A stretch of 64,000 nt of DNA from a virus (IMGVR_UViG_3300000117_000009:32001-96000), one strand, 5' to 3'; shown: positions 1,683 through 64,000, counted from the stretch's first letter. The notes: generated by a model not told the origin, from the sequence alone. Program-made: numbers and translations.

Positions 1683-2654
1683 TTGAAAAATAAATTAGAA
1701 AATTATATATACGAGCAGATTTTGATACTAGAGCAACGCCAGCTTATTAATGAAAATAAAGTATTAAAAGGACTAACTGCAGCCGGCCTATCAGCTGCAA
1801 TTTATTTTGCAACTATTTTTTTACAGAATAATGATGTCATACCAGATGAAGTTGCAGACAAAGCTGAGCAAAGCGCAACTTTGACACAAAGTCAATTAGA
1901 TCAAATTCAAAAAGGTGCTGAAGAAGCCCAGCGATTAATAGATCAAGGTACTGATCCTAAAAACATAATTATACATCAAAAAGAACCTGGTGTAGCCATA
2001 GCTTTTAAAACTTTGTTTATGAATTCTGATCAACCAACAGACGCTGAACTAGAAAACTTAGCGCCCGGCGAAAAAATACCTATTGCAAGTGTAGAAGAAG
2101 TTACGCAAGAACACATAGAACATGTGTTCAAGTATACACCAGAACAAATAAAAGAATATTTGAATACAGAGTCTGCAAGAGATGCTTTAACTATAGACTT
2201 CGGTGAAGAAGAAATTTGTCTTTTAGATATCGGTCAAAGTGAATTATCAGAAATAATGAATAATCCAAACAGTAAAGCTTTTAAGCATGTCTCAAAAGAA
2301 GTTCTTTCTAGAAGAATACAAGCCCGCGATGCAACATGGGATGCAATTGAAGCTTTTAGTGAAGACTATGAAAATACTTGGGATCAAAACGAAGCTGTCA
2401 AAAATATTAAGAGCGGATCAAGAGATAGCATTGGTGTAGGTAAAGCAATTGAAGCTTATATGAAAAATAAAAATGCAGATGCTTATCTCGATATTGTTAT
2501 TGATGCGTTTAACAACGGTAAAGTTCAAGATCAAAGTCAAGTTGACCAGTTTATTGATAATACAGACTTAGATGACTTTTCTAGTGAAGATTCTGAAGAC
2601 GATCGTGATATTTATAGAGACACAGAAGAAGTAATAGACTTTTTGGCAAACTAA
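1683..2654 (+). CDS. Acidic hypothetical protein with N-terminal tag and one hydrophobic segment
   Basis: TTG start with GAGG RBS; KLENYIYEQILILE...LINE followed by GLTAAGLSAAIYFATIFL. Confidence 0.65.
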   Translation: MKNKLENYIYEQILILEQRQLINENKVLKGLTAAGLSAAIYFATIFLQNNDVIPDEVADKAEQSATLTQSQLDQIQKGAEEAQRLIDQGTDPKNIIIHQKEPGVAIAFKTLFMNSDQPTDAELENLAPGEKIPIASVEEVTQEHIEHVFKYTPEQIKEYLNTESARDALTIDFGEEEICLLDIGQSELSEIMNNPNSKAFKHVSKEVLSRRIQARDATWDAIEAFSEDYENTWDQNEAVKNIKSGSRDSIGVGKAIEAYMKNKNADAYLDIVIDAFNNGKVQDQSQVDQFIDNTDLDDFSSEDSEDDRDIYRDTEEVIDFLAN

Positions 2655-2676
2655 TTTTATACTATAGGATTTTATA

Positions 2677-3471
2677 ATGGAACAGTTTACAACATTAAAC
2701 AAAAACAAAGACTACGTTATCTCACTGCAACAAGAAGTTGGTGTTAAAGCTGATGGCGTTTATGGACCTAACACACATAAAGCTGTAAAAAACTATTTTG
2801 GCATGCCAATTATCATGCATATGGGTAAAGTTATTCCTATTGACTCTCCTTTAGAAATCGACTGGTCAGCACCTCTTTATGAATTAGACGACGGTACAAA
2901 AAATTGGTATAAAAGAAAAACTGATCCTTCTACTATATGTGTTCACTGGGGAGGACTTAATAGCAGACACTGTTATAATGTATTTAACATGGCAAGAGGG
3001 CGTCACGTTTCTTCTCACTTTTTAATTGGTAAAAATCATAAAACAGGCGAGTTTGAAATTTTACAGTGCCTAGATACAGGTCTGGCTGCTTATCATGCTG
3101 GCAAATTTAATAAATATTCAATAGGCATTGATATATGCATGCACCCAGATTTACGTTATTGGGACAAGACGCGAAAGTGGTACCCAGATGCTTACAGAGA
3201 AGTAATGGAAAATATTGACCCAAGAGTAGATGGTAAAGAGATAGCTATGATTGGCGACGACTTTTCAGATCTATGTCGCCAATTTTTACAATCTTTAAGA
3301 GAAGCAACTAACTTAGATGAAAAGCCTGTATGTGAATCTTTTGATGTAATGTCTGTCAAGGAAGCTTCGAAATATAGCATAGTAGGACACCACAACATAT
3401 CAGCTAAAAAATGGGATGTTATACCTTGGGCAGAAAAGCTTTATTACGGATTAGATGAAGATATTGTTTAA
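2677..3471 (+). CDS. N-acetylmuramoyl-L-alanine amidase (Amidase_2) with N-terminal peptidoglycan-binding motif; probable endolysin
   Basis: LQ..VGVKADGVYGPNT PG-binding motif; CVHW, VSSHFLI, AYHAG, SIGIDI, IVGHHNI, KWD. Confidence 0.85.
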   Translation: MEQFTTLNKNKDYVISLQQEVGVKADGVYGPNTHKAVKNYFGMPIIMHMGKVIPIDSPLEIDWSAPLYELDDGTKNWYKRKTDPSTICVHWGGLNSRHCYNVFNMARGRHVSSHFLIGKNHKTGEFEILQCLDTGLAAYHAGKFNKYSIGIDICMHPDLRYWDKTRKWYPDAYREVMENIDPRVDGKEIAMIGDDFSDLCRQFLQSLREATNLDEKPVCESFDVMSVKEASKYSIVGHHNISAKKWDVIPWAEKLYYGLDEDIV

Positions 3472-3499
3472 TTAATCTTTAAAATTATATTTATTGTAT

Positions 3500-3528
3500 G
3501 TGTAAATTTCATATATTTGTCATATAAT
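3500..3528 (+). promoter_or_regulatory. Putative promoter GTGTAA-N17-TATAAT upstream of thyX
   Basis: Motif recurs upstream of several + strand metabolism genes. Confidence 0.65.
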
Positions 3529-3552
3529 CTTAATATAAAAAAAAGGTTTTAA

Positions 3553-4266
3553 ATGACAAATATACACTATCTTTATGACGACAATATAGGTAAAGTTGAA
3601 TTGGTCCAACATATGGGCGAAGACATAACAGTTGTTAACTCTGCTAGAGTATCTTTTGGAGTGCAAAAAGACAATCTAGATATAAAAGATCAGAAACTAA
3701 TTAACTATTTAATTAAGCATAGACACACTTCTACGTTAGAACATAATATTGCAACATTTAGAATTAAAGTGCCGCTATTCGTAAGGTCACAACATCATAG
3801 ACACAGAACATGGTCTTATAATGAAATAAGTAGAAGATATACTGATTCTGATATTAAGTTTTATGAGCCCGTTAGATTTAGAACACAACATAAAAGTAAC
3901 AGACAGGCTTCAAATCTAGAAGACACAATTAATCCTTTAATTAACTATAAAACAGACTATAGCTCACAACTTTATAAAAAAACAGCTTCAGACGCTATTT
4001 GTGATCACCATAAAATCTCACTCAAGCTTTTTGATGACCTATTAGCTTCAGGTATTTGTAGAGAGCAAGCTAGAGGCATTTTACCACAGAATCTCTATAC
4101 AGAATATTATGCAACGGCTAATTTAAATAATATACTAAAGTTTATTAATTTAAGATCACATGAAGGTGCACAGTGGGAAATACAAAGACTATCTGATAGC
4201 ATGTTATCTATTGTAAAAGAACTTTGGCCTGTAACTGTTAATAGTTTTATTAATAACCATAAATAG
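3553..4266 (+). CDS. thyX: FAD-dependent thymidylate synthase ThyX
   Basis: NSARVS, HTSTLEH, canonical RHRTWSYNEISRRY, EQARGILP, LRSHEGAQWEI. Confidence 0.95.
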   Translation: MTNIHYLYDDNIGKVELVQHMGEDITVVNSARVSFGVQKDNLDIKDQKLINYLIKHRHTSTLEHNIATFRIKVPLFVRSQHHRHRTWSYNEISRRYTDSDIKFYEPVRFRTQHKSNRQASNLEDTINPLINYKTDYSSQLYKKTASDAICDHHKISLKLFDDLLASGICREQARGILPQNLYTEYYATANLNNILKFINLRSHEGAQWEIQRLSDSMLSIVKELWPVTVNSFINNHK

Positions 4267-4297
4267 ACAATAATTACTATGTTTAGAAGGAGTCAAC

Positions 4298-4660
4298 ATG
4301 AAAACAAAAATTCTCTTAGAAAGACATAATGATTTAGTTAATACTCTTATAAGATGTCGTATAAAAATTGAAGATCGAGAAGATCCAACCGTCTTAGATA
4401 TAATGACAGATATGAGAGCATTACCAGGAGTTGTAACTGTTAGACAGACAAGACCCATATCAGACACGGTTACGTCTTACGGACACAGACTAATAGAGCT
4501 TAATGTGTCTTATATTCCTGCTTTTATTGAAGATAGTGATCCTTTTATGACAATGATCAGATCTTTAAAAAAAGTTGAAGGTATTGATATGATTAAGGTA
4601 ATGGAACACGACGAACAATCAATTAATGTAAAAATACAGAAAACACCACTAATTATTTGA
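4298..4660 (+). CDS. Hypothetical protein, possibly ACT/ferredoxin-like fold
   Basis: AGGAG RBS; two repeats of a helix-PGV/EGI-strand pattern (MRALPGVVTV; LKKVEGIDMI). Confidence 0.55.
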   Translation: MKTKILLERHNDLVNTLIRCRIKIEDREDPTVLDIMTDMRALPGVVTVRQTRPISDTVTSYGHRLIELNVSYIPAFIEDSDPFMTMIRSLKKVEGIDMIKVMEHDEQSINVKIQKTPLII

Positions 4661-4670
4661 AAGGAAAAAA

Positions 4671-4895
4671 ATGAATTTAAACGATACAACAATTGCGCAA
4701 ATTGTTAGACTGATACAGATGGCACTTCTTACTGGAACTGATATTGTTGATCACTTAAGAATGTTAATGCTAGAAGTAGATGAAAACCAAAAGCTAGTAA
4801 TTAATAGTGAGTACGAAAGAGTCTTTAATGAGTCACTTGAAAAAATGATGTCTAATATAAGTGAAAGAGAAAGTGAACCTGTTGCAAAAGACTAG
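4671..4895 (+). CDS. Small hypothetical protein
   Basis: AAGGA RBS; operonic ORF. Confidence 0.6.
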   Translation: MNLNDTTIAQIVRLIQMALLTGTDIVDHLRMLMLEVDENQKLVINSEYERVFNESLEKMMSNISERESEPVAKD

Positions 4896-5268
4896 CTTAG
4901 ATAAACTTGATATTCTCTTTGATAAAAGAGAGACTTTTATGGAACTTATCAAGAAAAAATACCCAGACTCATACAAAGATTGGCCTTTAGACATTTCAGA
5001 GAAAAGTAGTCAAGTTTTACTTAGAGACACTGCGCTCAAAGGCGTCGAAGAAATGTTTGAAGCACTAGGACATTTAAAGAACTGGAAGCCTCATAGAGAT
5101 ACTGATATGCCTGAGATTGATAGAGAAGAATTCTTAGAAGAAATAGTTGATGCCTTTAATTACTTCTTTTCTTTAATAATTTTAATGGGTGTTGATGTTA
5201 ATGAATTTTATAATGCTTTTAATAAAAAAGACGAGATAATAAGAAATAGAATTAAAAGCAACTATTGA
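4861..5268 (+). CDS. All-alpha NTP pyrophosphohydrolase (dimeric dUTPase/dCTPase/MazG superfamily)
   Basis: EEMFEA...NWKPH...EEFLEEIVDAFNY...KKDEII; ExxE...EExxD metal motifs and the WKxW/H signature. Confidence 0.8.
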   Translation: MKEKVNLLQKTSLDKLDILFDKRETFMELIKKKYPDSYKDWPLDISEKSSQVLLRDTALKGVEEMFEALGHLKNWKPHRDTDMPEIDREEFLEEIVDAFNYFFSLIILMGVDVNEFYNAFNKKDEIIRNRIKSNY

Positions 5269-5277
5269 TTTATTTAC

Positions 5278-5306
5278 GTGTAAATATTAAATTTATAAAT
5301 TATAAT
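5278..5306 (+). promoter_or_regulatory. Putative promoter GTGTAA-N17-TATAAT
   Basis: Intergenic, upstream of the ThyX-like gene and its AAGGAG RBS. Confidence 0.65.
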
Positions 5307-5334
5307 AAATTGGTAATAATAAAGGAGATAAATT

Positions 5335-6306
5335 TTGCCAATTAATAATGATCTTAAACAAGTCACTCTTCCAATGGAACTTAAGTTTGACCAAGTTCCT
5401 GTAACTAACTACATTAACAATCTAGAATCACTTAACATTGAACTAATTGATGGCCCTACTAGAGAACAAGCACAAAAAATTGCTTGGCACATGACAAAAG
5501 CAACATGGGCTGATACGCCTGCAGAAACTGCATTTGAAAACTCTACACCTGAAGAGGCTTCTCTTAATCTTCAAGATGTTCTTAATTTTAGAGCTCTTCC
5601 GACGCCGATGGAATGTTTAGGTTTTACTTTTAAAATTAGCGGAATTGATACACAAACAGTAACACATTTAATTAGACATAGAGCAGGTTCTTTTGCAGCA
5701 CAATGTACTGGCGATAGAGACCTTAGAAACGATAATGTTTTAGTTCCTGAGTCTGTTGAAAATTCAGACTTTCATCATCGATTTATTGAAGTTGCTGCTG
5801 CAGCAAAACAACTTTATTCTGATATGGTTGACTCACGTGCTGTATCACTTATGGACGCAAGAGTTATTCTACCTAAAGCATTAGAAACTTTTTATGTTGC
5901 AAGATTTAATCTTAAAGACTTAATTGGTTTTATTCGTCAACGTCAAGATGTACAAATTCAGCCAGAAGTAGACAATATTATTGCAACTCGTATTGCAAAA
6001 ATTGTTTGTACATCAATTCCTGAAGTTTCTACTTGCTTAAACTTTGAAAAACCAGACATGCATTATGTTCGAACTTTCCGTGTTGAATTACCTGACGGTA
6101 CATTTACATCTCGTGGAACAAATCTTTATTATCCAGAGCCTAAAAACGACTTGTTTGAGTTTAACGAAAAAGACGCTATTTATTCATGTCGTCGTGAAGA
6201 AATTAATGGAAACAAGAAAGGTGAAGAAAAAATCTTTACTAGAATGTGGAACGATGATGTTAAAGCTGTAAGACAAATTAGACAAAATTTAGACAGCGAG
6301 TTTTAA
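5335..6306 (+). CDS. Divergent ThyX-family flavoenzyme (Cys at the position of the motif Ser)
   Basis: THLIRHRAGSFAAQCTGDRD, DARVILP, FIRQR...QPE; TTG start; N- and C-terminal extensions relative to the canonical ThyX. Confidence 0.8.
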   Translation: MPINNDLKQVTLPMELKFDQVPVTNYINNLESLNIELIDGPTREQAQKIAWHMTKATWADTPAETAFENSTPEEASLNLQDVLNFRALPTPMECLGFTFKISGIDTQTVTHLIRHRAGSFAAQCTGDRDLRNDNVLVPESVENSDFHHRFIEVAAAAKQLYSDMVDSRAVSLMDARVILPKALETFYVARFNLKDLIGFIRQRQDVQIQPEVDNIIATRIAKIVCTSIPEVSTCLNFEKPDMHYVRTFRVELPDGTFTSRGTNLYYPEPKNDLFEFNEKDAIYSCRREEINGNKKGEEKIFTRMWNDDVKAVRQIRQNLDSEF

Positions 6307-6335
6307 TATAAAACTGTTACAGAAAACAAACTTCT

Positions 6336-6364
6336 GTGTAAAACAATTAAAAACATGGTAATTT
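6336..6364 (+). promoter_or_regulatory. Putative promoter GTGTAA-N17-TAATAT
   Basis: Intergenic, upstream of the NDT-family gene. Confidence 0.55.
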
Positions 6365-6385
6365 ATTTATAAAAGGAACAATTTA

Positions 6386-6835
6386 ATGAAAAAGATTTAT
6401 CTTGCAAGTGGTTGGTTTAATCCAGTTCAAGCAGAAGAACTTACTAATTTAGAGAATATTTTTGATGCAAGATCTGATCATTTTGATCTTGCATCACCTA
6501 GAAGAATTTTTGTTTGTCCTCCTAATGCGCCAAAGGAAGTTCAGGATGAAACTTTTACTGGTAACTTGCACCATATTGAAACAGCAGACTTTTTACTAGT
6601 TAATACTCGCGACAAAGATATTGGCACAATTTGGGAGGCTGGCTATGCATTTGCATTTAAAAAGCCAATTATCTATTTTTGCGCAGGTCTTCCAGAAGGT
6701 GCTAAATTTAATCTTATGTTAGCAAGAAGTGGTATTAAGGTCTGCACATCTTTTGAGCAGCTTGAAGAATACTTGGATAGAGTAATATCTACAGGCGAGC
6801 TACCTAATGAACCTTATGCAGCCGCAATTGAATAA
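6386..6835 (+). CDS. Nucleoside 2-deoxyribosyltransferase / nucleotide N-glycosidase (NDT, MilB/Rcl-like) family
   Basis: KIYLASGWF, DIGTIWEAGYA...KPI, FNLML. Confidence 0.88.
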   Translation: MKKIYLASGWFNPVQAEELTNLENIFDARSDHFDLASPRRIFVCPPNAPKEVQDETFTGNLHHIETADFLLVNTRDKDIGTIWEAGYAFAFKKPIIYFCAGLPEGAKFNLMLARSGIKVCTSFEQLEEYLDRVISTGELPNEPYAAAIE

Positions 6836-7094
6836 AAAGTTTTGGTCTTTCAAAGACACAAAAACTCACAAAAGAGTAAAAGAAAAATACTTAATTAAGC
6901 AAGTAATAAGGCTTTTTATTTTTGACAAAAGTTTTTTATTGCAAGTAAAGTGCAAAGAAGACAGAAATAAATTACAATATGTAATACCTTATAAGTTTAT
7001 GTCAAACATATGGCCACGAGGTTTTTACTCCGGCATTTCAGACAGTGGCATTGTTCATTTTACTGACAGTGACATTATACGAGTAATAGGATAA
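6807..7094 (+). CDS. Hypothetical protein
   Basis: Operonic ORF. Confidence 0.45.
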   Translation: MNLMQPQLNKKFWSFKDTKTHKRVKEKYLIKQVIRLFIFDKSFLLQVKCKEDRNKLQYVIPYKFMSNIWPRGFYSGISDSGIVHFTDSDIIRVIG

Positions 7095-7099
7095 TATAA

Positions 7100-7315
7100 A
7101 TGGCAAAATATAAAAAAATATTTAGAACATACTTCTTTCATAACATGTTTGGACATCCAATTATGGAAATTCTAAACAGTATAGGCAAAAGAGACTGGGC
7201 AGATTATGTTCACGATTATACTTTACCTAAAGAAGGTATTGATAAAAAAAGTACAGCAAATACAAAAGATGACGCGCCAGAAGTAAATAGAACAATTCGA
7301 CCAACAAAGGATTAA
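7100..7315 (+). CDS. Small hypothetical protein with HNxxGHPxxE...HDxT motif
   Basis: His-rich pattern FFHNMFGHPIMEIL...VHDYTLP. Confidence 0.55.
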   Translation: MAKYKKIFRTYFFHNMFGHPIMEILNSIGKRDWADYVHDYTLPKEGIDKKSTANTKDDAPEVNRTIRPTKD

Positions 7316-7319
7316 CGTT

Positions 7320-8138
7320 TTGCCAGAAGGACCTGAAGTAAAACTTTTTACTGAAAGACTTAATCAAAATTTTCGATATTACATGATTAAGTCTGTTGAA
7401 GTGCTAAGTGGTAGATACATTAAAAAGCCAATACAAAATCTAGAAGCACTAAACGGAAAAGAAATCAAAAGCTTTAATTGTAAAGGAAAGTTTATCTGGT
7501 TTGATTTAGACGATGTAATTGTTTTTAATACTTTAGGAATGACAGGCAGCTGGTCTAGACACAAAACAAAACATTCAAGAATAGCAATTAAATTTTACGA
7601 AAATGATACCGTATACTTTAACGATACAAGAAGCTTTGGTACGTTTCAGATTAAGTCTAGACAAGAACTTTCAAAAAAGTTAAAAAGCTTAGGCCCCGAT
7701 ATGTTGTCTAAGCCACCTGATACTGCAGAATTTATTCCTATATTTAGAAAGAAAAACAACAAAGACATATGCAGTGTTTTAATGAATCAAAACATTATTT
7801 CTGGAGTTGGCAATTATATCAAGGCTGAGTCTTTGTGGTATTCTAAAATTAATCCTCATGCTTTGATAAAAGATTTAACAGACGAAAATTTAGAAACTCT
7901 TAGGAAAGCAATATTGTTTGTTGTAAATAAGTCGTATCAAGAACAAGGTGCTTCAATAAAAGACTATTATACGTTTGATGAAGAAGAAGGCACAGCGACT
8001 GCTGGCTTTGTTGTGTACGGTAAGTCTAAAGATTACAACGGCCACAATGTAATAAAAGAGGAAACACTTGATAAGAGAGCAACTCATTGGGTTAAAGAAA
8101 GACAGATTTATGGAGTTAATCGACCTAAAACCAGGTGA
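7320..8138 (+). CDS. mutM: Fpg/Nei-family DNA glycosylase/AP lyase, zincless-finger type
   Basis: N-terminal PEGPEV, KGK, LGMTG, NDTRSFG, LGPD, H2TH GVGNYIKAESL; C-terminal RATHW with no Cys4 finger. Confidence 0.9.
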   Translation: MPEGPEVKLFTERLNQNFRYYMIKSVEVLSGRYIKKPIQNLEALNGKEIKSFNCKGKFIWFDLDDVIVFNTLGMTGSWSRHKTKHSRIAIKFYENDTVYFNDTRSFGTFQIKSRQELSKKLKSLGPDMLSKPPDTAEFIPIFRKKNNKDICSVLMNQNIISGVGNYIKAESLWYSKINPHALIKDLTDENLETLRKAILFVVNKSYQEQGASIKDYYTFDEEEGTATAGFVVYGKSKDYNGHNVIKEETLDKRATHWVKERQIYGVNRPKTR

Positions 8139-8301
8139 CTGCATTAAATACAATTTTTTGTATTCTAATGAAGAAGAGAAAATTGGATTAGTTACAAAAA
8201 TTAAAAAAGATAATAACTTTGCTTTCATGATCTATTTAGTTGACAATAAAGGTGCTATTGATGTTATACCGTTCAATATCATGGAGTATGAAAAAATATG
8301 A
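8113..8301 (+). CDS. Small hypothetical protein (SH3/KOW-like); start approximate, likely MELIDLKPGD
   Basis: LKPGDCIK...IGLVTKI pattern inside the 8068..8301 ORF. Confidence 0.4.
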   Translation, partial: ELIDLKPGDCIKYNFLYSNEEEKIGLVTKIKKDNNFAFMIYLVDNKGAIDVIPFNIMEYEKI

Positions 8302-8846
8302 ATATATTTGTATTGGATAAATCTGCTAAAAAGGCAGCTGAGTATCATTGCGACAAGCATGTAGTCAAAATGATTCTTGAGTCTGCACAAATGAAGTCGA
8401 CTGCACACTGGCTGCACTTGTTGTGGAGCAATAATAAGAATTTAAAAGATTTTAAAAGAGTTAGAGACGCTAAATTGTGGTTGCTGGAAAATACTAATCC
8501 GGCACTTCATCCGCCATACTCAATGACACACGTTAGACATCCATGCACTATATGGGTTTCTTCAACAGTACAAAATTATATGTGGCATTATGATTTGCTG
8601 TTTTATCTTTGCAAAGAGTATACGAAAAGATATGGTAAAATACATAAAACAGCAAATTATTTAAGCTGGTTTAAAAACAATATCCCGCAAGGTATGAAAA
8701 GCAGTAGTCTGGAAGACTTTGCAATTTGCATGAGAGAAGACTTTAAAATAAACAAAGATGCTGTTGCTTCTTATAGAAACTATTACAAAAAAGATAAAGT
8801 AAGGTTTGCTAAGTGGAAACTAAACAATACACCTATATGGTTTTAA
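8298..8846 (+). CDS. Pyrimidine-dimer DNA glycosylase (DenV-like) family protein
   Basis: MNIFVLD...A..HCDKHVVKMILESAQM, HxxHPCTIW, EYTKRYGKIH, SYRNYY. Confidence 0.8.
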   Translation: MNIFVLDKSAKKAAEYHCDKHVVKMILESAQMKSTAHWLHLLWSNNKNLKDFKRVRDAKLWLLENTNPALHPPYSMTHVRHPCTIWVSSTVQNYMWHYDLLFYLCKEYTKRYGKIHKTANYLSWFKNNIPQGMKSSSLEDFAICMREDFKINKDAVASYRNYYKKDKVRFAKWKLNNTPIWF

Positions 8847-9104: not shown

Positions 9105-9353
9105 ATGTCATCTTACTCAAAAGGATTAGAAGTTTCTGATCTCGTAACATTTATGCACAAAATTTTTAATAACCAATTTTCAGGCCCACGCACTGCGCTA
9201 GTCTTAAATAGAGAATATCTTTTTGAAAACAAAACAGAATATGGCATTAAAAAGTTTTTTGACTATAAAATGCTAGATACACAAAGTAACAAAGTATATA
9301 ACGTTAAAACAAGAGACATAAAAGTCGTTAAAATTTTAAAAGGAAGCAATTAA
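9105..9353 (+). CDS. Hypothetical protein
   Basis: AAGGA RBS; operonic ORF. Confidence 0.5.
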   Translation: MSSYSKGLEVSDLVTFMHKIFNNQFSGPRTALVLNREYLFENKTEYGIKKFFDYKMLDTQSNKVYNVKTRDIKVVKILKGSN

Positions 9354-10339
9354 TGAGAATAGGCATCACTGGTGAAAAAGGTTTTATTGCAACTAACTTG
9401 TCGAAAGAAATTATCAATCAAGGGCATGAATTTGTATCTATTGATAAGTCAGATTACGCTAAGACTCTGATGATATACACAGAAACTGATGAAGTCTGCG
9501 TATATTCTAATAATGCTGAATCCTGGATTCAATTGTTTAAAAGCCTAAATCTTGACTGCATTGTGCATAATGCAGCTGTTGTGGGAACTGATGTTGTTGC
9601 TTTAAATCCTGAGCATTCTATCAACACGAATATTTTAGGCACACAGACAATTGTTGAAGCTGCAAATAGTTGTGACATGCTAATTGTATACACAGGCACA
9701 ACAGTTATTTATGACACGTATAAGTATCAAGAATTTGATATTTTTGAAAATAGTGAAATATTCCCCAGGACAAATTATGCTGTCCAGAAATACGCTGGTG
9801 AGATGCTAGTAAGGAATAATGCAAAAGAGTGGCTTGTTACACGACCTTTATTTGCTTACGGCGGCATTGGTGATATGAACTCTTTAATTGCGAAGTCTTT
9901 ATTTGGCGTTAAAAATGGAATAGAAAACATTGACATATTTTTAGATCCACAAAAAATTAAAGATTATATGCATGTAGAGGACTTTTGTAATAGTGTTGTA
10001 AGGCTAATCGACTCTAGTGTTAGAAATGAAGACTTTAACATTACAGCTAGCAATCCACATAATACTTTAGAAATAGTTTCTATTATAGAAGAAGTTACCG
10101 GTTCAACCTTGGAAATTGTAGTTAAGTGGCACCCAGAAACAGACTATCTAGGAAATCATAGACTGTCTAATCAAAAGTTTGTTGACTTTATGGGCTTTGC
10201 AAATGTTCGAACACTCAGGGAAGGCATTAATCAGTCATGGCAGTCAATAAAAGATGCGAGTGAAAGTTACAATCCCTTAAAATACTTAGATCAAGCTAAG
10301 GCTCAAGATGTCGACTTAAAACAATTTTTTCCTAAGTAG
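9353..10339 (+). CDS. NAD-dependent epimerase/dehydratase (extended SDR; NDP-sugar modifying)
   Basis: ITGEKGFIA glycine motif, VHNAA, YAVQK (YxxxK), KDYMHVED. Confidence 0.85.
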   Translation: MRIGITGEKGFIATNLSKEIINQGHEFVSIDKSDYAKTLMIYTETDEVCVYSNNAESWIQLFKSLNLDCIVHNAAVVGTDVVALNPEHSINTNILGTQTIVEAANSCDMLIVYTGTTVIYDTYKYQEFDIFENSEIFPRTNYAVQKYAGEMLVRNNAKEWLVTRPLFAYGGIGDMNSLIAKSLFGVKNGIENIDIFLDPQKIKDYMHVEDFCNSVVRLIDSSVRNEDFNITASNPHNTLEIVSIIEEVTGSTLEIVVKWHPETDYLGNHRLSNQKFVDFMGFANVRTLREGINQSWQSIKDASESYNPLKYLDQAKAQDVDLKQFFPK

Positions 10340-22652: not shown

Positions 22653-23543
22653 ATGAGATTTTTCAATATTAATATCGAAGGCCCTGATTGCAGTGGCAAA
22701 ACAACTTTATACAGTCAGCTGCACAAAGAAACTAATTTTAAATATAACATTCAAGACAGAAGTTGTATGTCTATGTTTGTTTATGCAAAGATGTATGGAA
22801 GAGAAGATGCATCACTTTGGTTTGATAAAATTTTAGACGACCTTAAGCGACTAGACACACTTTACATACTTCTTTTACCTTCAGAAAAAACAATTCTTAA
22901 TAGACTACAAAAAAGAGGCGATGATTTTCAAGATAAAGACAGCATTTTAAAAGTAAGAAGTTATTTTAGAAATATTGCAAAAATGGGTTTTGGTTCCTAT
23001 CCTAACGTTTTAGTTTTAGAAGAAGATGATTTAGAAACAAATATAAACAAAACATTACAGTTTATAAACGCTCTAAACGAAATGCCTGGTCAAGAACTAA
23101 TCAAGTCTTTAGTGTTTAGCAGTGGTAGAAATGAATTGATTGATGTACAATGTAAAGAAGAAGTTAATAGAAATCATTTGGATTTAACTGTATTAGACTT
23201 TCCTCAAGAAAAAGAGTATTACGAAAAAATTGAGTTTGAGTTTTTTAATAAAATTTTTAGAGAGTTTGTTGGACTAAACGAACGCAATCAAGCACAAAAG
23301 CATGATAGCAGAAGATTTATCTATACTAGTGATAGTTGTATATCAATGATTCACGTTTTATGGCGCCAAAATAAATTAAATGTATTGGCAACCCTAAGAT
23401 CTTCAAACGTATCAAAAACTTTATGGGCTGATTATGAATTTCTTAAGATACTTAGTGTTAAAACTGCCAAAGAAATGTCTTTACCTGAAGATTGTGTTAT
23501 AAAACTTACAGTTGATATTCGATCGGCACATATAGTACCTTAG
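22653..23543 (+). CDS. Fusion of dNMP kinase (P-loop) and thymidylate-synthase (ThyA)-superfamily domain
   Basis: IEGPDCSGKTT, QDRS, RLQKRGDD; C-terminal half DSRR, SCIS (catalytic Cys), LRSSNVSKTLWAD, SAHI. Confidence 0.78.
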   Translation: MRFFNINIEGPDCSGKTTLYSQLHKETNFKYNIQDRSCMSMFVYAKMYGREDASLWFDKILDDLKRLDTLYILLLPSEKTILNRLQKRGDDFQDKDSILKVRSYFRNIAKMGFGSYPNVLVLEEDDLETNINKTLQFINALNEMPGQELIKSLVFSSGRNELIDVQCKEEVNRNHLDLTVLDFPQEKEYYEKIEFEFFNKIFREFVGLNERNQAQKHDSRRFIYTSDSCISMIHVLWRQNKLNVLATLRSSNVSKTLWADYEFLKILSVKTAKEMSLPEDCVIKLTVDIRSAHIVP

Positions 23544-23552
23544 AGAATTTTT

Positions 23553-24125
23553 ATGAACCCACAATTTATAATTTATACTGGCCCGATGTTTGGGTCAAAA
23601 ACAACAAGATTAATGTCTGATATCGATCGATCCTTATATAAAGGTCGTAAAGTAATAGCTTTCAAAGCTAAAAAAGACAATAGATATACAAAAGAAACAA
23701 TTAGTACACATACTGGTGCAACATATCCAGCATTTTGCATAAACCATGCTGAAGAGATATTGTGTTATGTAAACGAAGACATACATAATTCAAACACAAT
23801 AGTCGCTGTTGACGAAGCTTTTATGATTCAGGATATTGACTCTGTTTTGATTTCTTTATATCGTAAAGGTGTTAATATAATTGTGTCATCAATTCAATTA
23901 GACGCAAACGAGATACCTTTTGAGAACATAAAAAACATGATGCCTTGGGCGACAAAAATCGAAATTTGTCCAGCTGTCTGTACGATCTGTGACCAGGATG
24001 CATATTTTACAGAAGCTATGTTTGATATTAACAGTGCAACACAAGAAGAAAGAATTGGCTCGTTTGGAATGTATGAGCCAAGATGTGCAACCCACTACAC
24101 TAGTTTTAGAGAGACTAAAGATTGA
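23553..24125 (+). CDS. tdk: Thymidine kinase (type II)
   Basis: GPMFGSKTT, DNRY, VDEAF, CTIC...YEPRC..H. Confidence 0.92.
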   Translation: MNPQFIIYTGPMFGSKTTRLMSDIDRSLYKGRKVIAFKAKKDNRYTKETISTHTGATYPAFCINHAEEILCYVNEDIHNSNTIVAVDEAFMIQDIDSVLISLYRKGVNIIVSSIQLDANEIPFENIKNMMPWATKIEICPAVCTICDQDAYFTEAMFDINSATQEERIGSFGMYEPRCATHYTSFRETKD

Positions 24126-25488: not shown

Positions 25489-25908
25489 ATGGTAGATATA
25501 AATAGGCCTTCATGGGACAAAATTTGGATGCAAATGGCAGAAACTATTGCTCAACGTAGCCATCACCCAACTTTTAAAGTAGGTGCACTTATAGTAACGT
25601 CAGATAATACGCAAGTTCTTTCCTTAGGATATAATGGTCGCGCAGCAGGAATGTCAAACGTACCTCAATCTGATGAACCTGGGTGTAGTGGTTTATTGCA
25701 TGCTGAAATTAATGCGTTGCTTAAACTTGACTATAATAATCCTAAAGATAAGGTAATGTACATTACACTAAGCCCTTGCGAAAATTGTGCAATGGCAATT
25801 ATAAATAGCGGCATAAAAAAAGTAGTGTACAAAGATGAGTATAGAGACATGTCAGGTGTAGATTTATTGAGAAAAGCAAATATTACTGTTAATAATATAT
25901 ATTTATAG
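25489..25908 (+). CDS. dCMP deaminase
   Basis: RPSWD, KVGA, GYNG, HAEINAL, SPCENC. Confidence 0.92.
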   Translation: MVDINRPSWDKIWMQMAETIAQRSHHPTFKVGALIVTSDNTQVLSLGYNGRAAGMSNVPQSDEPGCSGLLHAEINALLKLDYNNPKDKVMYITLSPCENCAMAIINSGIKKVVYKDEYRDMSGVDLLRKANITVNNIYL

Positions 25909-29222: not shown

Positions 29223-29771
29223 ATGAAACTTGACAGCAAGTTAATGCTAAAGCTTTTAAAAGAAGAATACGACAAAAGAATAAACTACTATCTTGGTGAA
29301 GTTGAAACTAGAGCTAAACATAGTCAAGAAGACGGTGAATTGGTGCAAAATGCGAGTGGCTTAAAAGTTAAAGATAGAGCAGGAAACGTGTTTGTAATTG
29401 ATAGACTTGAAGAGCCAGAAGGAGGTGAAATATTAGTTTATTTAATTCCTCCAGGTAGAGAAGATTCAAACTTAAAAATACAAACACCTTCAGCGCCTAT
29501 GAATGATGTTAGAGAGGATAATCTAAGCCAAACTTATAGCTCATTAGAAGTTAATGAAAAAGAAGAAAACGAAAAAGAAGGCAAAAGAAAAATCGATGAT
29601 AAAAAGCCCGATCCTATGAAAAGCGGAGAAATAATCAAGCCAAACCCAAAAGCTAAGACTAAAAAAAGCTTTGACATAAAATCAAATGTTGAAAGCATAG
29701 ACTCTTATGAAGAGGTTAACGGGAGAATAGTTATAACATTAAAACAACTAGATAAGGACTTTACACTATGA
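29223..29771 (+). CDS. Hypothetical protein (tagged)
   Basis: AGGAG RBS; LMLKLLKEE. Confidence 0.6.
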   Translation: MKLDSKLMLKLLKEEYDKRINYYLGEVETRAKHSQEDGELVQNASGLKVKDRAGNVFVIDRLEEPEGGEILVYLIPPGREDSNLKIQTPSAPMNDVREDNLSQTYSSLEVNEKEENEKEGKRKIDDKKPDPMKSGEIIKPNPKAKTKKSFDIKSNVESIDSYEEVNGRIVITLKQLDKDFTL

Positions 29772-30484
29772 ATAAACTAGAAGATATAATCAGTAAAGCT
29801 GTGAGTGATACTTTGCAAGAAAAAGGTGTTAACAATCATCATAATAAAAAGATAGAAAACCTTAATGAATCATATGTAACGCAAGTTGGAAGCTTTAATT
29901 TGCAAACTGAACTTCTTTCTTCAAAAACTAAAAAAGCACATCAACAACTTTTAAAAGGCTATGTAGAAACATTAAACAAAATTTCAGCAAGTTTAGACGG
30001 TGTTGACAAGTCTTCAGCAAACTTAAACATGTCTGCTTTTCGATCTCTTAAGATAGATGAAACATACAATCATAATGCTGCTTTTCTTCATGGTTTGTAT
30101 TTTGAAAACATTAGCGACTTAAGCAGTAATATTTCTGTTGACTCTTTGGCTTATATGCGACTTTCAAGAGACTTTGGCAGCTTTGATGCTTGGCAAGAAG
30201 ATTTTGTTGCTTGTTGCTTGTCAGCTAGAAACGGTTGGGCAATAACTGCATATAATACTCATTTGCAAAGATTTGTTAATACAGTTGTTGACTTACATAG
30301 TTTAAATGTAATGACTGGTATTTATCCAGTTATTATTATGGATTGTTGGGAACATAGCTATTATAGAGACTATTTAAAAGATAGAAAATCATATGTTTTT
30401 GGTATGATGAAAGAATTAAACTGGGAAGTAATAGAAAATAGAATTAAAAAAGCTGATGCGATAGCAAAAATAATTAAAGGTTAA
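29768..30484 (+). CDS. Fe/Mn superoxide dismutase with N-terminal extension
   Basis: KAHQQL, NAAFLHGLYFEN, FGSFDAW, GWA, DCWEHSYYRDY, LNWEVI. Confidence 0.88.
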   Translation: MNKLEDIISKAVSDTLQEKGVNNHHNKKIENLNESYVTQVGSFNLQTELLSSKTKKAHQQLLKGYVETLNKISASLDGVDKSSANLNMSAFRSLKIDETYNHNAAFLHGLYFENISDLSSNISVDSLAYMRLSRDFGSFDAWQEDFVACCLSARNGWAITAYNTHLQRFVNTVVDLHSLNVMTGIYPVIIMDCWEHSYYRDYLKDRKSYVFGMMKELNWEVIENRIKKADAIAKIIKG

Positions 30485-62462: not shown

Positions 62463-63383
62463 ATGAATAGATTTGGATATGCGTGCATCAATATGGAACT
62501 ACGAGAAAAAGGTATATTCAATTCTAGGACAATGCGTAAAGCTACTTTTCTATCAAAAGGCTTGCCACACGCTTCTAAGTTGGTTCTTCAAAACGTAAAA
62601 GATATGCTTCCAATATTTAACTGGAATTATAAGAACAATGTCAAGGTATTTCGTTTGTCCTCAGAAATTACTCCTTGGGCAAGTGAATATGAGCTACATG
62701 AGCTTCCAGACTACGAAGAAATATGTCACTATCTCAAAATGGCTGGCGATTATACTAAAGTTATTGGCCAGCGAATTTCTTTCCACCCAGGACAGTTTAA
62801 TTGCCTTGCGTCTGAAAAGGGTTATGTTGTAGAAAATTGTATAAAGGATCTAGAAATTCATGGAAAGTTATTTGATTTGATGGGTTTAGACCAGAATCAT
62901 TGGTCAAAGATCAATATACACTTAGGTTCTACATGCGGTGGCAATCTACAACTGGCTGCAGACAACTTTAATAAAAACTTTCAAAGACTATCACCTTCAG
63001 TCCAATCAAGATTAACTGTTGAGAATGACGATAAAGCAGCAATGTTTAGCTCAAAGTTCTTATATGAAAATATTTACAAGGTAAATAAAGTACCTATTGT
63101 ATTTGATGCACATCATTTTACTTTAGGCCCACAAGATGCACCTTACAAAGAGTCTTTTGATATGGCATATGACTCTTGGCCGTCTACAATTCGTCCAACG
63201 TGTCATCATTCTAATGGTAAAAAAGAGTTTGAAGATCCAACAATAAGGTCAGCAGCAGCACATTCAGACTATTACTACAAGCCGTTTGATAGTTGTGGTA
63301 AATCAGTTGATATTATGCTAGAAGCTAAATGCAAAGAAAAAGCTCTAATGAAATACAGAAAAGATTTTTTAAATGATAAGTAA
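62463..63383 (+). CDS. uvsE: UV damage endonuclease UvsE/UVDE
   Basis: RFGYACIN, FRLSS, SFHPGQF, INIHLG, LTVENDD, FDAHH, HSDY, IMLEAKCKE. Confidence 0.93.
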   Translation: MNRFGYACINMELREKGIFNSRTMRKATFLSKGLPHASKLVLQNVKDMLPIFNWNYKNNVKVFRLSSEITPWASEYELHELPDYEEICHYLKMAGDYTKVIGQRISFHPGQFNCLASEKGYVVENCIKDLEIHGKLFDLMGLDQNHWSKINIHLGSTCGGNLQLAADNFNKNFQRLSPSVQSRLTVENDDKAAMFSSKFLYENIYKVNKVPIVFDAHHFTLGPQDAPYKESFDMAYDSWPSTIRPTCHHSNGKKEFEDPTIRSAAAHSDYYYKPFDSCGKSVDIMLEAKCKEKALMKYRKDFLNDK

Positions 63384-63440: not shown

Positions 63441-64000
63441 ATGAGAATTAATAATAAAGAAGTATTAAGTTTTGATGATGTAATATTAGAACCACAATAC
63501 TCAGATCTAATAACACGAAAAGACATAAACACTTCAGTGACAGTTAGATACTCTGAAAAGAGTTTAGGATTTAAAATACCAATCATCAGTTCACCTATGT
63601 CAACAGTTACAGAAGCGCATATGTCTAACGCAATGATTAGTCAGGGCGGTTTAGGTATTATCCATAGGTATAATACAATCGACTTTCAGACAAAGCTCTT
63701 AGGATATGTCAATCATAGAGATTATAGGGCAGCTGCAATTGGCGTAACTGGAGATTATAAAGAAAGACTGTCTGAACTTGTAAATAATGATCTAAATATT
63801 GTCTGTATTGATATTGCGCATGGTGATCATATTCTTATGGAAAACGCAATAGAATTCATCAGAAATGAATATCCGCATCTATTTGTTATAGCAGGAAACG
63901 TTGCTACAGGACATGCATATAAAAGACTGGCAATGGCAGGTGCACATGCAGTCAGAACATCTGTAGGTAGCGGAAGTATTTGTACAACAAGAATACAAAC
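63441..64000 (+). CDS. IMP dehydrogenase / GMP reductase family (no CBS insert), truncated by window end
   Basis: LSFDDVILEP..S, PIISSPMSTVTE, GGLGIIHR, IDIAHG, AGNVATG, VGSGSICTTR. Confidence 0.9.
   Translation, partial: MRINNKEVLSFDDVILEPQYSDLITRKDINTSVTVRYSEKSLGFKIPIISSPMSTVTEAHMSNAMISQGGLGIIHRYNTIDFQTKLLGYVNHRDYRAAAIGVTGDYKERLSELVNNDLNIVCIDIAHGDHILMENAIEFIRNEYPHLFVIAGNVATGHAYKRLAMAGAHAVRTSVGSGSICTTRIQ

What the first reader, a model, noticed from the sequence alone, without database searches (positions are those of the whole stretch)
3553..6835. ThyX + dNTP pyrophosphatase + Cys-type ThyX paralog + NDT cluster: possible new base-modification module
Seen: two ThyX-family genes lie 1 kb apart. 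The first has the canonical RHRx7SxRY motif; the second has RHRAGSFAAQCTGDR (Ser replaced by Cys, SxRY lost) and terminal extensions. An all-alpha dNTPase lies between them and an NDT/MilB-like N-glycosidase follows. Established: phages with substituted bases pair a modifying synthase with enzymes that remove the canonical nucleotide, and MilB/Rcl-type enzymes cleave (modified) NMPs. Inference: the paralog is a neofunctionalised flavoenzyme acting on a non-dUMP substrate, possibly together with the kinase/ThyA-like fusion.
Basis: partly seen in the sequence, partly recalled or inferred. Interest (0 to 1): 0.75.

Follow-up and report, generated by a model that had tools for sequence, protein, structure and literature searches.

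The report
Rewired ThyX paralog nucleotide module
An uncultured marine giant phage has a normal flavin-type thymidylate synthase and a second, rewired copy that, in dozens of unrelated phages and a few tiny bacteria, sits with the same nucleotide-handling genes beside the DNA polymerase, so it probably makes an unusual DNA pyrimidine, but no experiment shows which.

Summary
Window 3553-6835 holds, on one strand:
- a canonical ThyX;
- two small unknown genes;
- an all-alpha NTP pyrophosphatase;
- a divergent ThyX paralog (ThyXp);
- a nucleoside 2-deoxyribosyltransferase (NDT).

ThyXp belongs to a large, deep, mostly viral clade under purifying selection. The clade keeps the flavin-binding and pyrimidine-binding arginines. 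It replaces the catalytic loop S-G-R-Y with C-[TS]-G-D, the folate-stacking His with Leu, and the arginine and serine contacts to dUMP.

Across 37 non-redundant neighbourhoods ThyXp lies near:
- an all-alpha pyrophosphatase (29);
- a small TMPK-like kinase (28);
- an NDT (23) or, never both, an FAD amine-oxidase-like protein (12);
- an HD 5'-deoxynucleotidase (14);
- a cytosine-type mini thymidylate-synthase domain (at least 12);
- a DNA polymerase gene (33).

In this phage the kinase and mini-TS are fused at 22653-23543.

Rare Patescibacteria chromosomes carry the operon with UDG-like, NUDIX, glycosyltransferase and FMN-reductase genes.

Best reading: a precursor-level pathway to a non-canonical pyrimidine. 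The chemistry is unresolved, and a divergent thymidine-producing role is not excluded.

The scan had already found this clade on other DNA.

The parts
3553..4266 (+). Canonical flavin-dependent thymidylate synthase (ThyX1)
   Evidence: Pfam Thy1 E 2.8e-46. TIGR02170 169.6 bits, cut-off 87.9. Aligns with T. maritima ThyX with H53, E58, R78-H79-R80, S88, R90, Y91, R147 and R174 conserved.
4298..4660 (+). Conserved 120-aa protein of unknown function
   Evidence: No Pfam, PHROG or NCBIfam hit. Syntenic between ThyX1 and the pyrophosphatase in 47 of 81 related loci.
4671..4895 (+). Conserved 74-aa acidic protein that always precedes the pyrophosphatase in this lineage
   Evidence: Found in 65 loci against 68 with the pyrophosphatase. 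No family hit above its threshold. Its 3' end overlaps the next ORF by 35 nt.
4861..5268 (+). All-alpha NTP pyrophosphohydrolase (MazG / dimeric-dUTPase-like); substrate unknown
   Evidence: phrog_12184 E 1.4e-16. Pfam dUTPase_2 and PRA-PH hits are below their cut-offs. A profile of the homologous domain from distant modules hits dimeric dUTPases in the PDB. A member of this family lies within 7 kb of ThyXp in 29 of 37 non-redundant loci.
5335..6306 (+). ThyX paralog of the C-[TS]-G-D clade (ThyXp), with an RBS and a TTG start
   Evidence: Thy1 E 2e-19. TIGR02170 below cut-off. AF2 mean pLDDT 95.8. Best folds are Mtb ThyX 3gwc and PolB 4p5b. Residue statistics, tree, dN/dS 0.11. AAAGGAG lies upstream of the TTG start.
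6386..6835 (+). Nucleoside 2-deoxyribosyltransferase-family protein (NDT)
   Evidence: PF05014 46.8 bits, cut-off 28.8. phrog_7995 E 1.6e-27. 6EVS NDT E 3.9e-8. The catalytic Glu and an Asp six residues before it are kept in all 24 module NDT domains aligned. Adjacent to ThyXp in 79 of 81 lineage loci.
7320..8138 (+). Fpg/Nei-family DNA glycosylase; a neighbour that is possibly linked
   Evidence: Pfam Fapy_DNA_glyco E 1e-19 and H2TH E 1.5e-14. Near the module in 44 of 81 lineage loci. The Patescibacteria operons carry a UDG-superfamily gene instead.
9353..10339 (+). NAD-dependent sugar-nucleotide epimerase/dehydratase (SDR); a loosely linked neighbour
   Evidence: PF01370 E 1e-27. Present in 64 of 81 lineage loci. 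A homologue lies directly upstream of ThyXp in the distant phage contigs L173 and L177.
22653..23543 (+). Fusion of a TMPK-like kinase and a cytosine-type mini thymidylate-synthase domain; a distal member of the same module
   Evidence: The two halves match two separate genes that directly follow ThyXp in Patescibacteria and other viral loci. A profile of the mini-TS half hits T4 dCMP hydroxymethylase 1b49 (E 0.0013) and 9iqu/9iqc, aligned at the Cys, RS-x-D, Asp and H-x-Y motifs.

Best explanation
The region is a co-directional block of deoxynucleotide-metabolism genes in an uncultured marine jumbo phage.

ThyX1 makes dTMP in the ordinary way.

ThyXp is a ThyX-fold enzyme, most likely still a flavoenzyme, that no longer does the canonical reaction. 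It keeps the arginines that hold the FAD phosphates (R78, R80) and the two that hold the pyrimidine nucleotide (R147 and R174 equivalents). The active-site loop that closes over uracil C5 and flavin N5 (S88-G-R90-Y91) has become C-[TS]-G-D-[RK]-D-x-R. The folate-stacking His53 has become Leu, and R74, Q75 and E86 are gone.

It works in a portable module that follows T4-like logic:
1. An all-alpha pyrophosphatase turns a canonical dNTP into its dNMP.
2. ThyXp, in many genomes together with a cytosine-type mini-TS enzyme encoded next to it, alters C5 of a pyrimidine by flavin chemistry. Hydroxylation or hydroxymethylation are the best guesses.
3. A dedicated small kinase re-phosphorylates the product for the DNA polymerase encoded alongside.
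4. The NDT, often with an HD 5'-deoxynucleotidase, recycles or removes the canonical deoxynucleoside.

Shown: gene identities, residue replacements, clade structure, purifying selection and gene linkage.
Inferred: flavin binding, the substrate, the reaction, and the presence of a modified base in the DNA.
For: Clade and selection:
- 718 representatives at E<=1e-3 and 140 at E<=1e-10.
- The family splits from 24 canonical ThyX sequences on one branch, SH-aLRT 93.
- dN/dS median 0.11.

Residue pattern over 78 members:
- Kept: R78 in 78, R80 in 73, R147 equivalent in 76, R174 equivalent in 77.
- Changed: H53 to L in 69; S88 to C in 59; R90 to G or A in 70; Y91 to D or E in 67.
- In canonical ThyX, S88 and Y91 are critical (a Y91 mutation slows flavin oxidation about 1000-fold) and H53 stacks on folate (PMC11940539). 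R87, S105 and R107 of Mtb ThyX bind dUMP, and Y108 forms a lid over C5/N5 (PMC6514825).

Coexistence with a canonical thymidylate synthase:
- Two complete jumbo-phage genomes.
- Five Patescibacteria or gammaproteobacterial MAG genomes.

Linkage in 37 non-redundant loci (with Pfam in 82, 83):
- pyrophosphatase 29;
- kinase 28;
- NDT 23 or FAD amine-oxidase-like protein 12, never both;
- HD nucleotidase 14;
- mini-TS at least 12;
- DNA polymerase of family C, A or B in 33.

Gene fusions tie the parts together:
- kinase-NDT, kinase-miniTS and oxidase-pyrophosphatase;
- a GT2-like domain fused to ThyXp in P0134.

Redox and glycosylation partners lie nearby:
- a nitroreductase and a glycosyltransferase next to ThyXp in phage GR1;
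- an FMN reductase, GT1/GT2, UDG-like and NUDIX genes in the Patescibacteria operons.

The window phage also has TK and dCMP deaminase. With ThyX1, this gene set parallels that of T4, which keeps thymine and replaces cytosine.
Against: - No assay and no DNA composition data exist for any carrier. The GR1 paper has none.
- Both pyrimidine-binding arginines are retained, so dUMP cannot be excluded as the substrate.
- In six complete small phage genomes and in GR1, ThyXp is the only ThyX/ThyA-family gene, which is what a plain thymidylate synthase would look like.
- The Cys is absent from 19 of 78 members, so a Cys-nucleophile mechanism cannot be general.
- The mini-TS is undetectable in eight complete small genomes, so it is not an obligatory partner.
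- NDT, HD nucleotidase and kinases are also ordinary salvage enzymes.
- Glycosyltransferase linkage rests on a few cases only.
Confidence: 0.5

Rival explanations
1. ThyXp still feeds the thymidine pool. It is either a very divergent thymidylate synthase or a uracil/deoxyuridine-level methylase. It would work in a salvage and pool-balancing route: the HD nucleotidase makes deoxynucleosides, the NDT swaps bases, and kinases re-phosphorylate. This could help AT-rich phages convert host-derived deoxynucleotides.
For: - It is the only ThyX/ThyA-family gene in GR1 and in six complete small phage genomes.
- The R147 and R174 equivalents and the FAD arginines are kept.
- Its tightest partners are salvage-type enzymes. 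The NDT is nucleoside-type, with Asp six residues before the catalytic Glu. HD YfbR-like nucleotidases occur in 14 of 37 loci, and kinase-NDT fusions exist.
- Loss of the dUMP-contacting residues R74, S88 and R90, together with an acidic protein (pI 5.16 against 9.07 for ThyX1), would fit an unphosphorylated substrate.
- The window genome has 31% G+C.
Against: - S88, Y91 and H53 are catalytic or folate-binding residues, not only dUMP contacts (PMC11940539), and they are replaced throughout the clade.
- Jumbo phages and genomes of only 0.4-1.1 Mb keep ThyXp alongside a canonical ThyX or ThyA.
- The module often includes a cytosine-type mini-TS, flavin reductases, and UDG-like and NUDIX genes, which plain dT salvage does not need.
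Confidence: 0.25
2. ThyXp is not a free-standing enzyme. It is the flavin-bearing half of a two-protein enzyme. The mini-TS binds and activates dCMP through its Cys, and ThyXp presents the flavin (or a flavin-borne one-carbon or oxygen species) to C5.
For: - The defects are complementary. The mini-TS keeps Cys, RS-x-D, Asp and H-x-Y, but only its C-terminal half aligns with thymidylate synthases; its N-terminal ~95 positions have no counterpart.
- ThyXp keeps the flavin arginines but lacks the lid and most dUMP contacts.
- When both genes are present, the mini-TS gene is the next or next-but-one gene after ThyXp, often with overlapping stop and start codons.
- Flavin reductase genes sit directly upstream in GR1 and in L096.
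Against: - The mini-TS was not found in eight complete small phage genomes that have ThyXp.
- No ThyXp-miniTS fusion was found.
- Solved relatives of the mini-TS (9iqu, 234 aa) are only about 50 residues longer and bind flavin themselves (PMC13326640), so the mini-TS may be self-sufficient.
- No complex model could be computed with these tools.
Confidence: 0.12
3. ThyXp is a non-catalytic or regulatory paralog, for example a partner that hetero-oligomerises with ThyX1, or it acts on DNA or tRNA rather than on a small molecule.
For: - Many catalytic residues of ThyX are lost.
- It lies 1 kb from ThyX1 in this phage.
- DNA glycosylase and polymerase genes are neighbours.
Against: - It occurs without any canonical ThyX in GR1 and in six complete phage genomes, and about 50 kb from ThyX1 in a 284-kb relative.
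- Purifying selection is strong, and the replacement loop is itself conserved.
- An intein interrupts one family member.
- The protein and both extensions are acidic (net charge -11, family median pI 6.0), which is unlike nucleic-acid-modifying enzymes.
- The closest partners act on free deoxynucleotides and deoxynucleosides.
Confidence: 0.08

Closest known systems
Flavin-dependent thymidylate synthase ThyX / FDTS (EC 2.1.1.148; T. maritima TM0449, M. tuberculosis ThyX)
   Same: - Same fold: Foldseek against 3gwc gives E 3.8e-12, and TM normalised to the target is 0.65-0.78.
- Pfam Thy1 is above its cut-off.
- The R-x-R flavin motif, E58, and the R147 and R174 equivalents are kept.
   Different: - Below the TIGR02170 cut-off.
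- The active-site loop S-G-R-Y is replaced by C-[TS]-G-D.
- H53, R74, Q75, N85 and E86 are replaced.
- About 130 extra residues lie in conserved terminal extensions.
- It coexists with canonical enzymes and forms a separate clade.
PolB, the ThyX paralog that methylates UMP/dUMP in polyoxin biosynthesis (PDB 4p5a, 4p5b)
   Same: It is a precedent for a neofunctionalised ThyX paralog that coexists with a housekeeping ThyX (PMC5954106). It is a good structural match: E 8.4e-11, rmsd 3.1 over 232 columns.
   Different: PolB is still a C5 methylase of uridine nucleotides, and it sits in an antibiotic gene cluster. ThyXp has lost the loop and folate residues and sits in phage replication modules. 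Whether PolB keeps the S-x-R-Y loop was not tested here.
T4-type precursor-level cytosine replacement (gp56 dCTPase, gp42 dCMP hydroxymethylase, gp1 dNMP kinase), and the flavin/O2-dependent 5-hydroxy-dCMP synthases of RB69, DLP3 and HY126
   Same: - Same gene logic: pyrophosphatase, base-modifying enzyme and dedicated kinase, with thymidylate synthase, TK and dCMP deaminase also present.
- The linked mini-TS aligns with T4 gp42 and with 9iqu/9iqc at the catalytic Cys and the cytosine-specifying Asp.
- Flavin use by a nucleotide-modifying enzyme has a precedent (PMC13326640).
   Different: Those pathways use one TS-fold enzyme and no ThyX-fold protein, NDT or amine-oxidase-like flavoprotein. 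No modified base has been shown for any ThyXp carrier.
Nucleoside 2-deoxyribosyltransferases (Lactobacillus NDT/PDT; Bacillus psychrosaccharolyticus NDT, 6EVS)
   Same: For the gene at 6386-6835: Pfam is above its cut-off, and the catalytic Glu, the N-terminal Tyr motif and the Asp six residues before the Glu are kept.
   Different: The setting is a phage module. In several lineages the NDT is fused to a P-loop kinase. The acceptor base is unknown.

Membership tests
Canonical ThyX / FDTS (TIGR02170 equivalog), tested for ThyXp 5335-6306 | Thy1 fold and Pfam PF02511 above its gathering score | tested here: met
   70.6 bits against a cut-off of 24.8. Foldseek top hits are all ThyX.
Canonical ThyX / FDTS (TIGR02170 equivalog), tested for ThyXp 5335-6306 | Score above the curated equivalog cut-off | tested here: not met
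   53.4 bits against 87.9. ThyX1 scores 169.6.
Canonical ThyX / FDTS (TIGR02170 equivalog), tested for ThyXp 5335-6306 | ThyX motif RHR-x7-S-x-R-Y (T. maritima S88, R90, Y91) | tested here: not met
   RHR and S83 are kept. S88 is Cys, R90 is Gly and Y91 is Asp. Across the clade: Cys 59 of 78, Gly or Ala 70 of 78, Asp or Glu 67 of 78.
Canonical ThyX / FDTS (TIGR02170 equivalog), tested for ThyXp 5335-6306 | Folate-stacking His53 | tested here: not met
   Leu in the window protein and in 69 of 78 members. The role of H53 is taken from PMC11940539.
Canonical ThyX / FDTS (TIGR02170 equivalog), tested for ThyXp 5335-6306 | Pyrimidine-binding arginines R147 and R174 | tested here: met
   R176 and R203 of the window protein, kept in 76 and 77 of 78 members.
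Canonical ThyX / FDTS (TIGR02170 equivalog), tested for ThyXp 5335-6306 | dUMP to dTMP activity; thyA complementation; bound FAD | not testable with these tools
   These need enzyme assays, genetics and spectroscopy.
Canonical ThyX / FDTS, tested for ThyX1 3553-4266 | Equivalog score and full motif set | tested here: met
   169.6 bits. All named residues are conserved against 1kq4.
Nucleoside 2-deoxyribosyltransferase (PF05014), tested for 6386-6835 | Pfam above cut-off; catalytic Glu nucleophile; Asp six residues before it (nucleoside-type rather than Rcl/DNPH1-type, where that position is Ser; this criterion is from my own knowledge) | tested here: met
   46.8 bits against 28.8. 6EVS E 3.9e-8, DNPH1 only E about 0.5. 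The motif KD-x-G-x-x-[WF]-E is present in all 24 module NDT domains aligned.
All-alpha NTP pyrophosphohydrolase superfamily (MazG / dimeric dUTPase / HisE), tested for 4861-5268 | Family profile match and the acidic metal-binding motifs ExxE ... ExxD | tested here: inconclusive
   - Pfam dUTPase_2 17.5 bits and PRA-PH 16.9 bits are both below their cut-offs.
- phrog_12184 E 1.4e-16.
- The motifs are present.
- The single sequence gives no PDB hit.
- A profile of distant module homologues hits dimeric dUTPases at E about 1e-3.
Precursor-level DNA base replacement pathway (T4-like) | A dNTP pyrophosphatase, a base-modifying enzyme and a dedicated dNMP kinase encoded together | tested here: met
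   In the window the kinase is at 22653-23543.
Precursor-level DNA base replacement pathway (T4-like) | A non-canonical base actually present in virion DNA | not testable with these tools
   Only assembled contigs are held for the runs that carry this DNA. The GR1 paper has no such data.

The most novel reading that the evidence does not exclude
ThyXp and the cytosine-type mini-TS are two complementary half-enzymes. One has a nucleotide site with a Cys nucleophile but lacks the N-terminal part of a full-length thymidylate synthase. The other has a flavin site but no lid and few dUMP contacts. Together they would form an undescribed heteromeric flavoenzyme that installs a C5 group on dCMP. The same pathway, extended by UDG-like, NUDIX, glycosyltransferase and FMN-reductase genes, would then give rare Patescibacteria a hypermodified cytosine in cellular DNA.
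Probability: 0.12. Interest if true: 0.88.

Novelty: new variant of a known kind. Interest (0 to 1): 0.68.

Why it matters
Known routes to modified pyrimidines in phage DNA start from ThyA-fold enzymes. A ThyX-fold enzyme with new chemistry would be a second, independent entry point.

- It is widespread in marine and other uncultured phages: hundreds of 50%-identity clusters.
- It defines a portable module that can be recognised from sequence.
- It may affect how such DNA behaves towards restriction enzymes, sequencing and cloning.
- The alternative use of either an NDT or an amine-oxidase-like flavoprotein is unexplained.
- The chromosomal copies in Patescibacteria are also unexplained.
- One cultured carrier, Geobacillus phage GR1, makes the question directly testable.

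Tried and rejected
- blastn of the region against cultured phages found no match.
- tblastn of ThyXp found only one full-length relative, in phage GR1.
- A search for longer fused forms of ThyXp found none, which is weak evidence.
- An alignment of 30 diverse clade-A members was too divergent for a locus scan. A smaller alignment worked.
- One paper search timed out. Searches for ThyX-like paralogs, for ThyX with deoxyribosyltransferase, and for GR1 found no description of this clade or module.
- Promoter-like sites are not above chance, and no terminator lies in 2600-8400. This only fits co-transcription; it does not show it.
- The FAD amine-oxidase-like partner is not found in the window's own 107-kb record, which is only 42% complete.
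- The pyrophosphatase alone gives no PDB sequence hit.
- A conserved gene of about 220 aa sits between the pyrophosphatase and ThyXp in relatives but is absent from the window. It folds confidently (pLDDT 93.5). It has no PDB sequence match, no Foldseek match, and only noise-level VIA matches (best Z 6.1).
- BFVD holds no full-length structural match to ThyXp (TM normalised to the query at most 0.56).
- No RNA holder is listed among public runs, and all holders are kept as contigs, so there are no read-level hints of base modification.
- The idea of a polynucleotide substrate was set aside, because the protein is acidic and its partners act on free nucleotides.
- An obligatory ThyXp/mini-TS pairing was downgraded, because eight complete small genomes lack a detectable mini-TS.

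Full report
WHAT IS THERE

The window is part of a 107-kb IMG/VR virus record (positions 32001-96000). It is low in G+C (about 31%). Its relatives reach 211-284 kb, so it is an uncultured marine jumbo-phage lineage.

Positions 3553-6835 hold six co-directional, closely spaced ORFs:
- ThyX1, 3553-4266;
- a 120-aa ORF and a 74-aa ORF without family assignment;
- an all-alpha NTP pyrophosphatase, 4861-5268;
- the ThyX paralog ThyXp, 5335-6306, with a TTG start behind AAAGGAG;
- an NDT, 6386-6835.

An Fpg/Nei glycosylase and an SDR epimerase/dehydratase follow. Pfam, PHROG and NCBIfam results confirm each identity. ThyX1 passes the thyX equivalog cut-off (169.6 against 87.9 bits). ThyXp does not (53.4 bits).

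THE PARALOG

I mapped ThyXp onto T. maritima ThyX through ThyX1 and onto M. tuberculosis ThyX directly.
- Kept: R78-H79-R80, S83, E58, and the R147 and R174 equivalents (R176 and R203).
- Changed: R74 to T, Q75 to H, H53 to L, N85 and E86 to A, S88 to C, G89 to T, R90 to G, Y91 to D.

Published work gives these residues clear roles in canonical ThyX. S88 and Y91 are strictly conserved and critical: a Y91 mutation slows flavin oxidation about 1000-fold. H53 stacks on the folate and hydrogen-bonds to Y91 and N85 (PMC11940539). The Mtb equivalents of R74, S88 and R90 hold dUMP, and the Tyr forms a lid over uracil C5 and flavin N5 (PMC6514825). So the methylene-transfer apparatus and most dUMP contacts are replaced, while the flavin and pyrimidine anchors remain.

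An AF2 model built from 78 family members is very confident, including both terminal extensions (mean pLDDT 95.8). Its best solved matches are ThyX enzymes and the UMP/dUMP methylase PolB. No viral model in BFVD matches it over its full length.

A CLADE, NOT AN ACCIDENT

An exhaustive HMMER search finds 718 representatives at 50% identity with E<=1e-3, and 140 with E<=1e-10.

Over 78 full-length members the new loop is itself conserved:
- Cys 59, Thr or Ser 68, Gly or Ala 70, Asp or Glu 67, followed by [RK]-D-x-R;
- Leu replaces H53 in 69.

The Cys is missing in 19 members, so 'Cys-type' holds for most of the clade but not all.

On a tree, 94 family members separate from 24 canonical ThyX sequences on one branch (SH-aLRT 93, quick search). 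They form two deep sub-clades. The canonical loop closest in sequence to the ThyXp loop reads RHRIG-x-SYSQQSQRY.

Within the window's lineage, dN/dS has a median of 0.11. The protein is acidic (pI 5.16, net charge -11), whereas ThyX1 has pI 9.07.

One family member carries an intein. Another carries an HNH insertion. One is fused to a GT2-like domain.

COMPANY IT KEEPS

In 80 IMG/VR loci of the window's lineage (58-96% identity), the order 74-aa gene, pyrophosphatase, ThyXp, NDT is kept. ThyX1 is adjacent only in the closer relatives. Both complete jumbo genomes carry ThyX1 and ThyXp, and no Pfam ThyA match.

I then collected distant members and reduced them to 37 neighbourhoods whose ThyXp proteins share at most 65% identity. 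Gene families were clustered or profiled within 7 kb, and representatives were named with Pfam. Counts out of 37:
- all-alpha pyrophosphatase, 29;
- small TMPK-like P-loop kinase, 28;
- NDT, 23;
- HD YfbR-like 5'-deoxynucleotidase, 14;
- mini-TS, 12 by profile, plus three more by BLAST clustering;
- FAD amine-oxidase/UGM-like protein, 12 (fold assignment).

NDT and the amine-oxidase-like protein never occur together. Between them they cover 35 of the 37 loci.

A replicative DNA polymerase gene lies within 7 kb in 33 of 37 loci. It is downstream in 29 of these. The polymerase family varies: DnaE-type in 19, PolA in 10, PolB in 4.

Fusions link the parts: kinase-NDT in six lineages, kinase-miniTS in this window and in L283, and oxidase-pyrophosphatase in Patescibacteria and several phage contigs.

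All module NDTs keep the catalytic Glu and an Asp six residues before it. From my own knowledge, that position distinguishes nucleoside-type NDTs from the phosphate-binding Rcl/DNPH1 type.

THE KINASE/MINI-TS LINK

The two halves of the window protein at 22653-23543 match two separate genes. In Patescibacteria MAGs, gammaproteobacterial MAG contigs and several viral contigs these genes follow ThyXp directly. In GR1 the mini-TS homologue starts where ThyXp ends, and the kinase lies upstream.

A profile of the mini-TS hits T4 dCMP hydroxymethylase (E 0.0013) and the 9iqu/9iqc thymidylate-synthase homologues. The alignment covers the catalytic Cys, the RS-x-D motif, an Asp at the position that specifies cytosine, and H-x-Y. 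This independently agrees with earlier notes of this scan.

However, eight complete small phage genomes with ThyXp have no detectable mini-TS. The pairing is therefore frequent but not obligatory.

WHERE IT STANDS ALONE AND WHERE IT DOES NOT

- Geobacillus phage GR1 and six complete small phage genomes have ThyXp as their only ThyX/ThyA-family gene.
- Jumbo phages, one 96-kb phage, and five small cellular genomes (0.4-1.1 Mb) have ThyXp together with a canonical ThyX or ThyA.

CELLULAR COPIES

Against that, three Patescibacteria contigs (up to 453 kb) carry the operon in a chromosomal setting, next to YchF, HtrA, CtpA and an aldo-keto reductase.

There the operon is extended:
- downstream by a UDG-superfamily gene and a NUDIX gene;
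- in one genome by GT1 and GT2 genes;
- in another by an NADPH-FMN reductase directly upstream.

The operon is rare. Only the seed genome among 301 evenly sampled genomes of that phylum gives a strong match.

In GR1 a nitroreductase-family gene lies directly upstream of ThyXp. A glycosyltransferase, an HD protein and the NDT lie a few kb upstream.

READING

The gene logic resembles the T4 scheme for replacing a base at the precursor level: pyrophosphatase, modifying enzyme(s), and a dedicated kinase, placed next to the polymerase.

This phage also has ThyX1, TK and dCMP deaminase. That argues that thymine is kept and that, if a base is replaced, cytosine is the better candidate. The Asp-type mini-TS points the same way.

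The catalytic Tyr/Arg lid has been replaced by Gly and Asp, and the folate-stacking His is lost. Together with the nearby flavin reductases, this fits flavin chemistry other than reductive methylation. Hydroxylation or hydroxymethylation are the obvious candidates, but this is inference.

The main rival remains open: ThyXp feeds the thymidine pool through an NDT/HD/kinase salvage route, perhaps on an unphosphorylated substrate. Its support is that ThyXp often stands alone, keeps both pyrimidine-binding arginines, and has salvage enzymes as its closest partners.

A two-component ThyXp/mini-TS enzyme is the most novel reading that is not excluded.

LITERATURE AND EARLIER NOTES

Full-text searches found no description of this clade or module. 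The GR1 paper reports no DNA chemistry. PolB is the known precedent for a repurposed ThyX paralog (PMC5954106). Flavin-dependent TS-fold 5-hydroxy-dCMP synthases are the known precedent for flavin use in phage cytosine modification (PMC13326640).

This scan had already flagged the same clade on other genomes. New here:
- the quantified neighbourhood census;
- the mutual exclusion of NDT and the oxidase-like protein;
- the polymerase adjacency across three polymerase families;
- the chromosomal Patescibacteria operons;
- the finding that the Cys is not universal.

LIMITS

- No coordinates of the model were available for pocket analysis.
- No multimer prediction could be run.
- Only contigs, not reads, are held for the runs that contain this DNA.

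Noticed in passing
L096:5714-10922 and L094:3636-11583 (Patescibacteria MAG contigs): A chromosomal operon with these genes in order: FMN reductase (L096 only), amine-oxidase-like protein fused to a pyrophosphatase, ThyXp, kinase, mini-TS, UDG-superfamily, NUDIX, and in L094 also GT1, GT2 and an APH-like kinase. Housekeeping genes (YchF, HtrA, CtpA) flank it. It is rare: 1 of 301 sampled genomes of the phylum.
   Followed up: partly
L002:3983-4636 and homologues (alignment A8); absent from the window, where a 66-nt spacer lies at 5269-5334: Most relatives carry two extra genes between the small pyrophosphatase and ThyXp: one of about 220 aa and a dimeric-dUTPase-like gene of about 307 aa. The 220-aa protein folds confidently (pLDDT 93.5) but has no sequence or fold match. 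The window phage has lost both genes.
   Followed up: partly
37 non-redundant ThyXp loci (e.g. L329, L296, L173 against L274, L314, L335): NDT and an FAD amine-oxidase/UGM-like protein of about 300 aa are mutually exclusive partners of ThyXp (23 and 12 loci, no overlap). This suggests that they supply an equivalent step. No explanation is at hand.
   Followed up: partly
window 4298-4660 and 4671-4895: Two conserved small proteins of unknown function lie between ThyX1 and the pyrophosphatase. The 74-aa one accompanies the pyrophosphatase even in the most distant relatives of the lineage, and it overlaps the next ORF by 35 nt.
   Followed up: no
window 7320-8138 and 8298-8846: An Fpg/Nei-family glycosylase with the N-terminal Pro-Glu motif, and a phrog_624 protein with a weak hit to pyrimidine-dimer glycosylase, follow the module. 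UvdE lies at 62463-63383. This is an unusually rich DNA-repair set for a phage.
   Followed up: no
window 23553-24125, 25489-25908, 29768-30484, 40015-41652, 41880-42644, 63441-63998: Thymidine kinase, dCMP deaminase, a protein with an Fe/Mn superoxide dismutase C-terminal domain, GroEL, a sigma-70-family factor, and an IMPDH/GMP-reductase fragment at the window end.
   Followed up: no
P0134 (551 aa, NCBI-sourced metagenomic protein): A GT2-like domain (DxD-type 'HDND') is fused N-terminally to a ThyXp with a C-S-A-D loop. It is the only fusion that links the clade to a glycosyltransferase. The Pfam hit is below its cut-off.
   Followed up: partly
G006 and G009 (Patescibacteria genomes): Besides ThyXp, these genomes carry ORFs of 557-721 aa with two tandem Thy1 domains. 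These look like duplicated-fused canonical ThyX.
   Followed up: no
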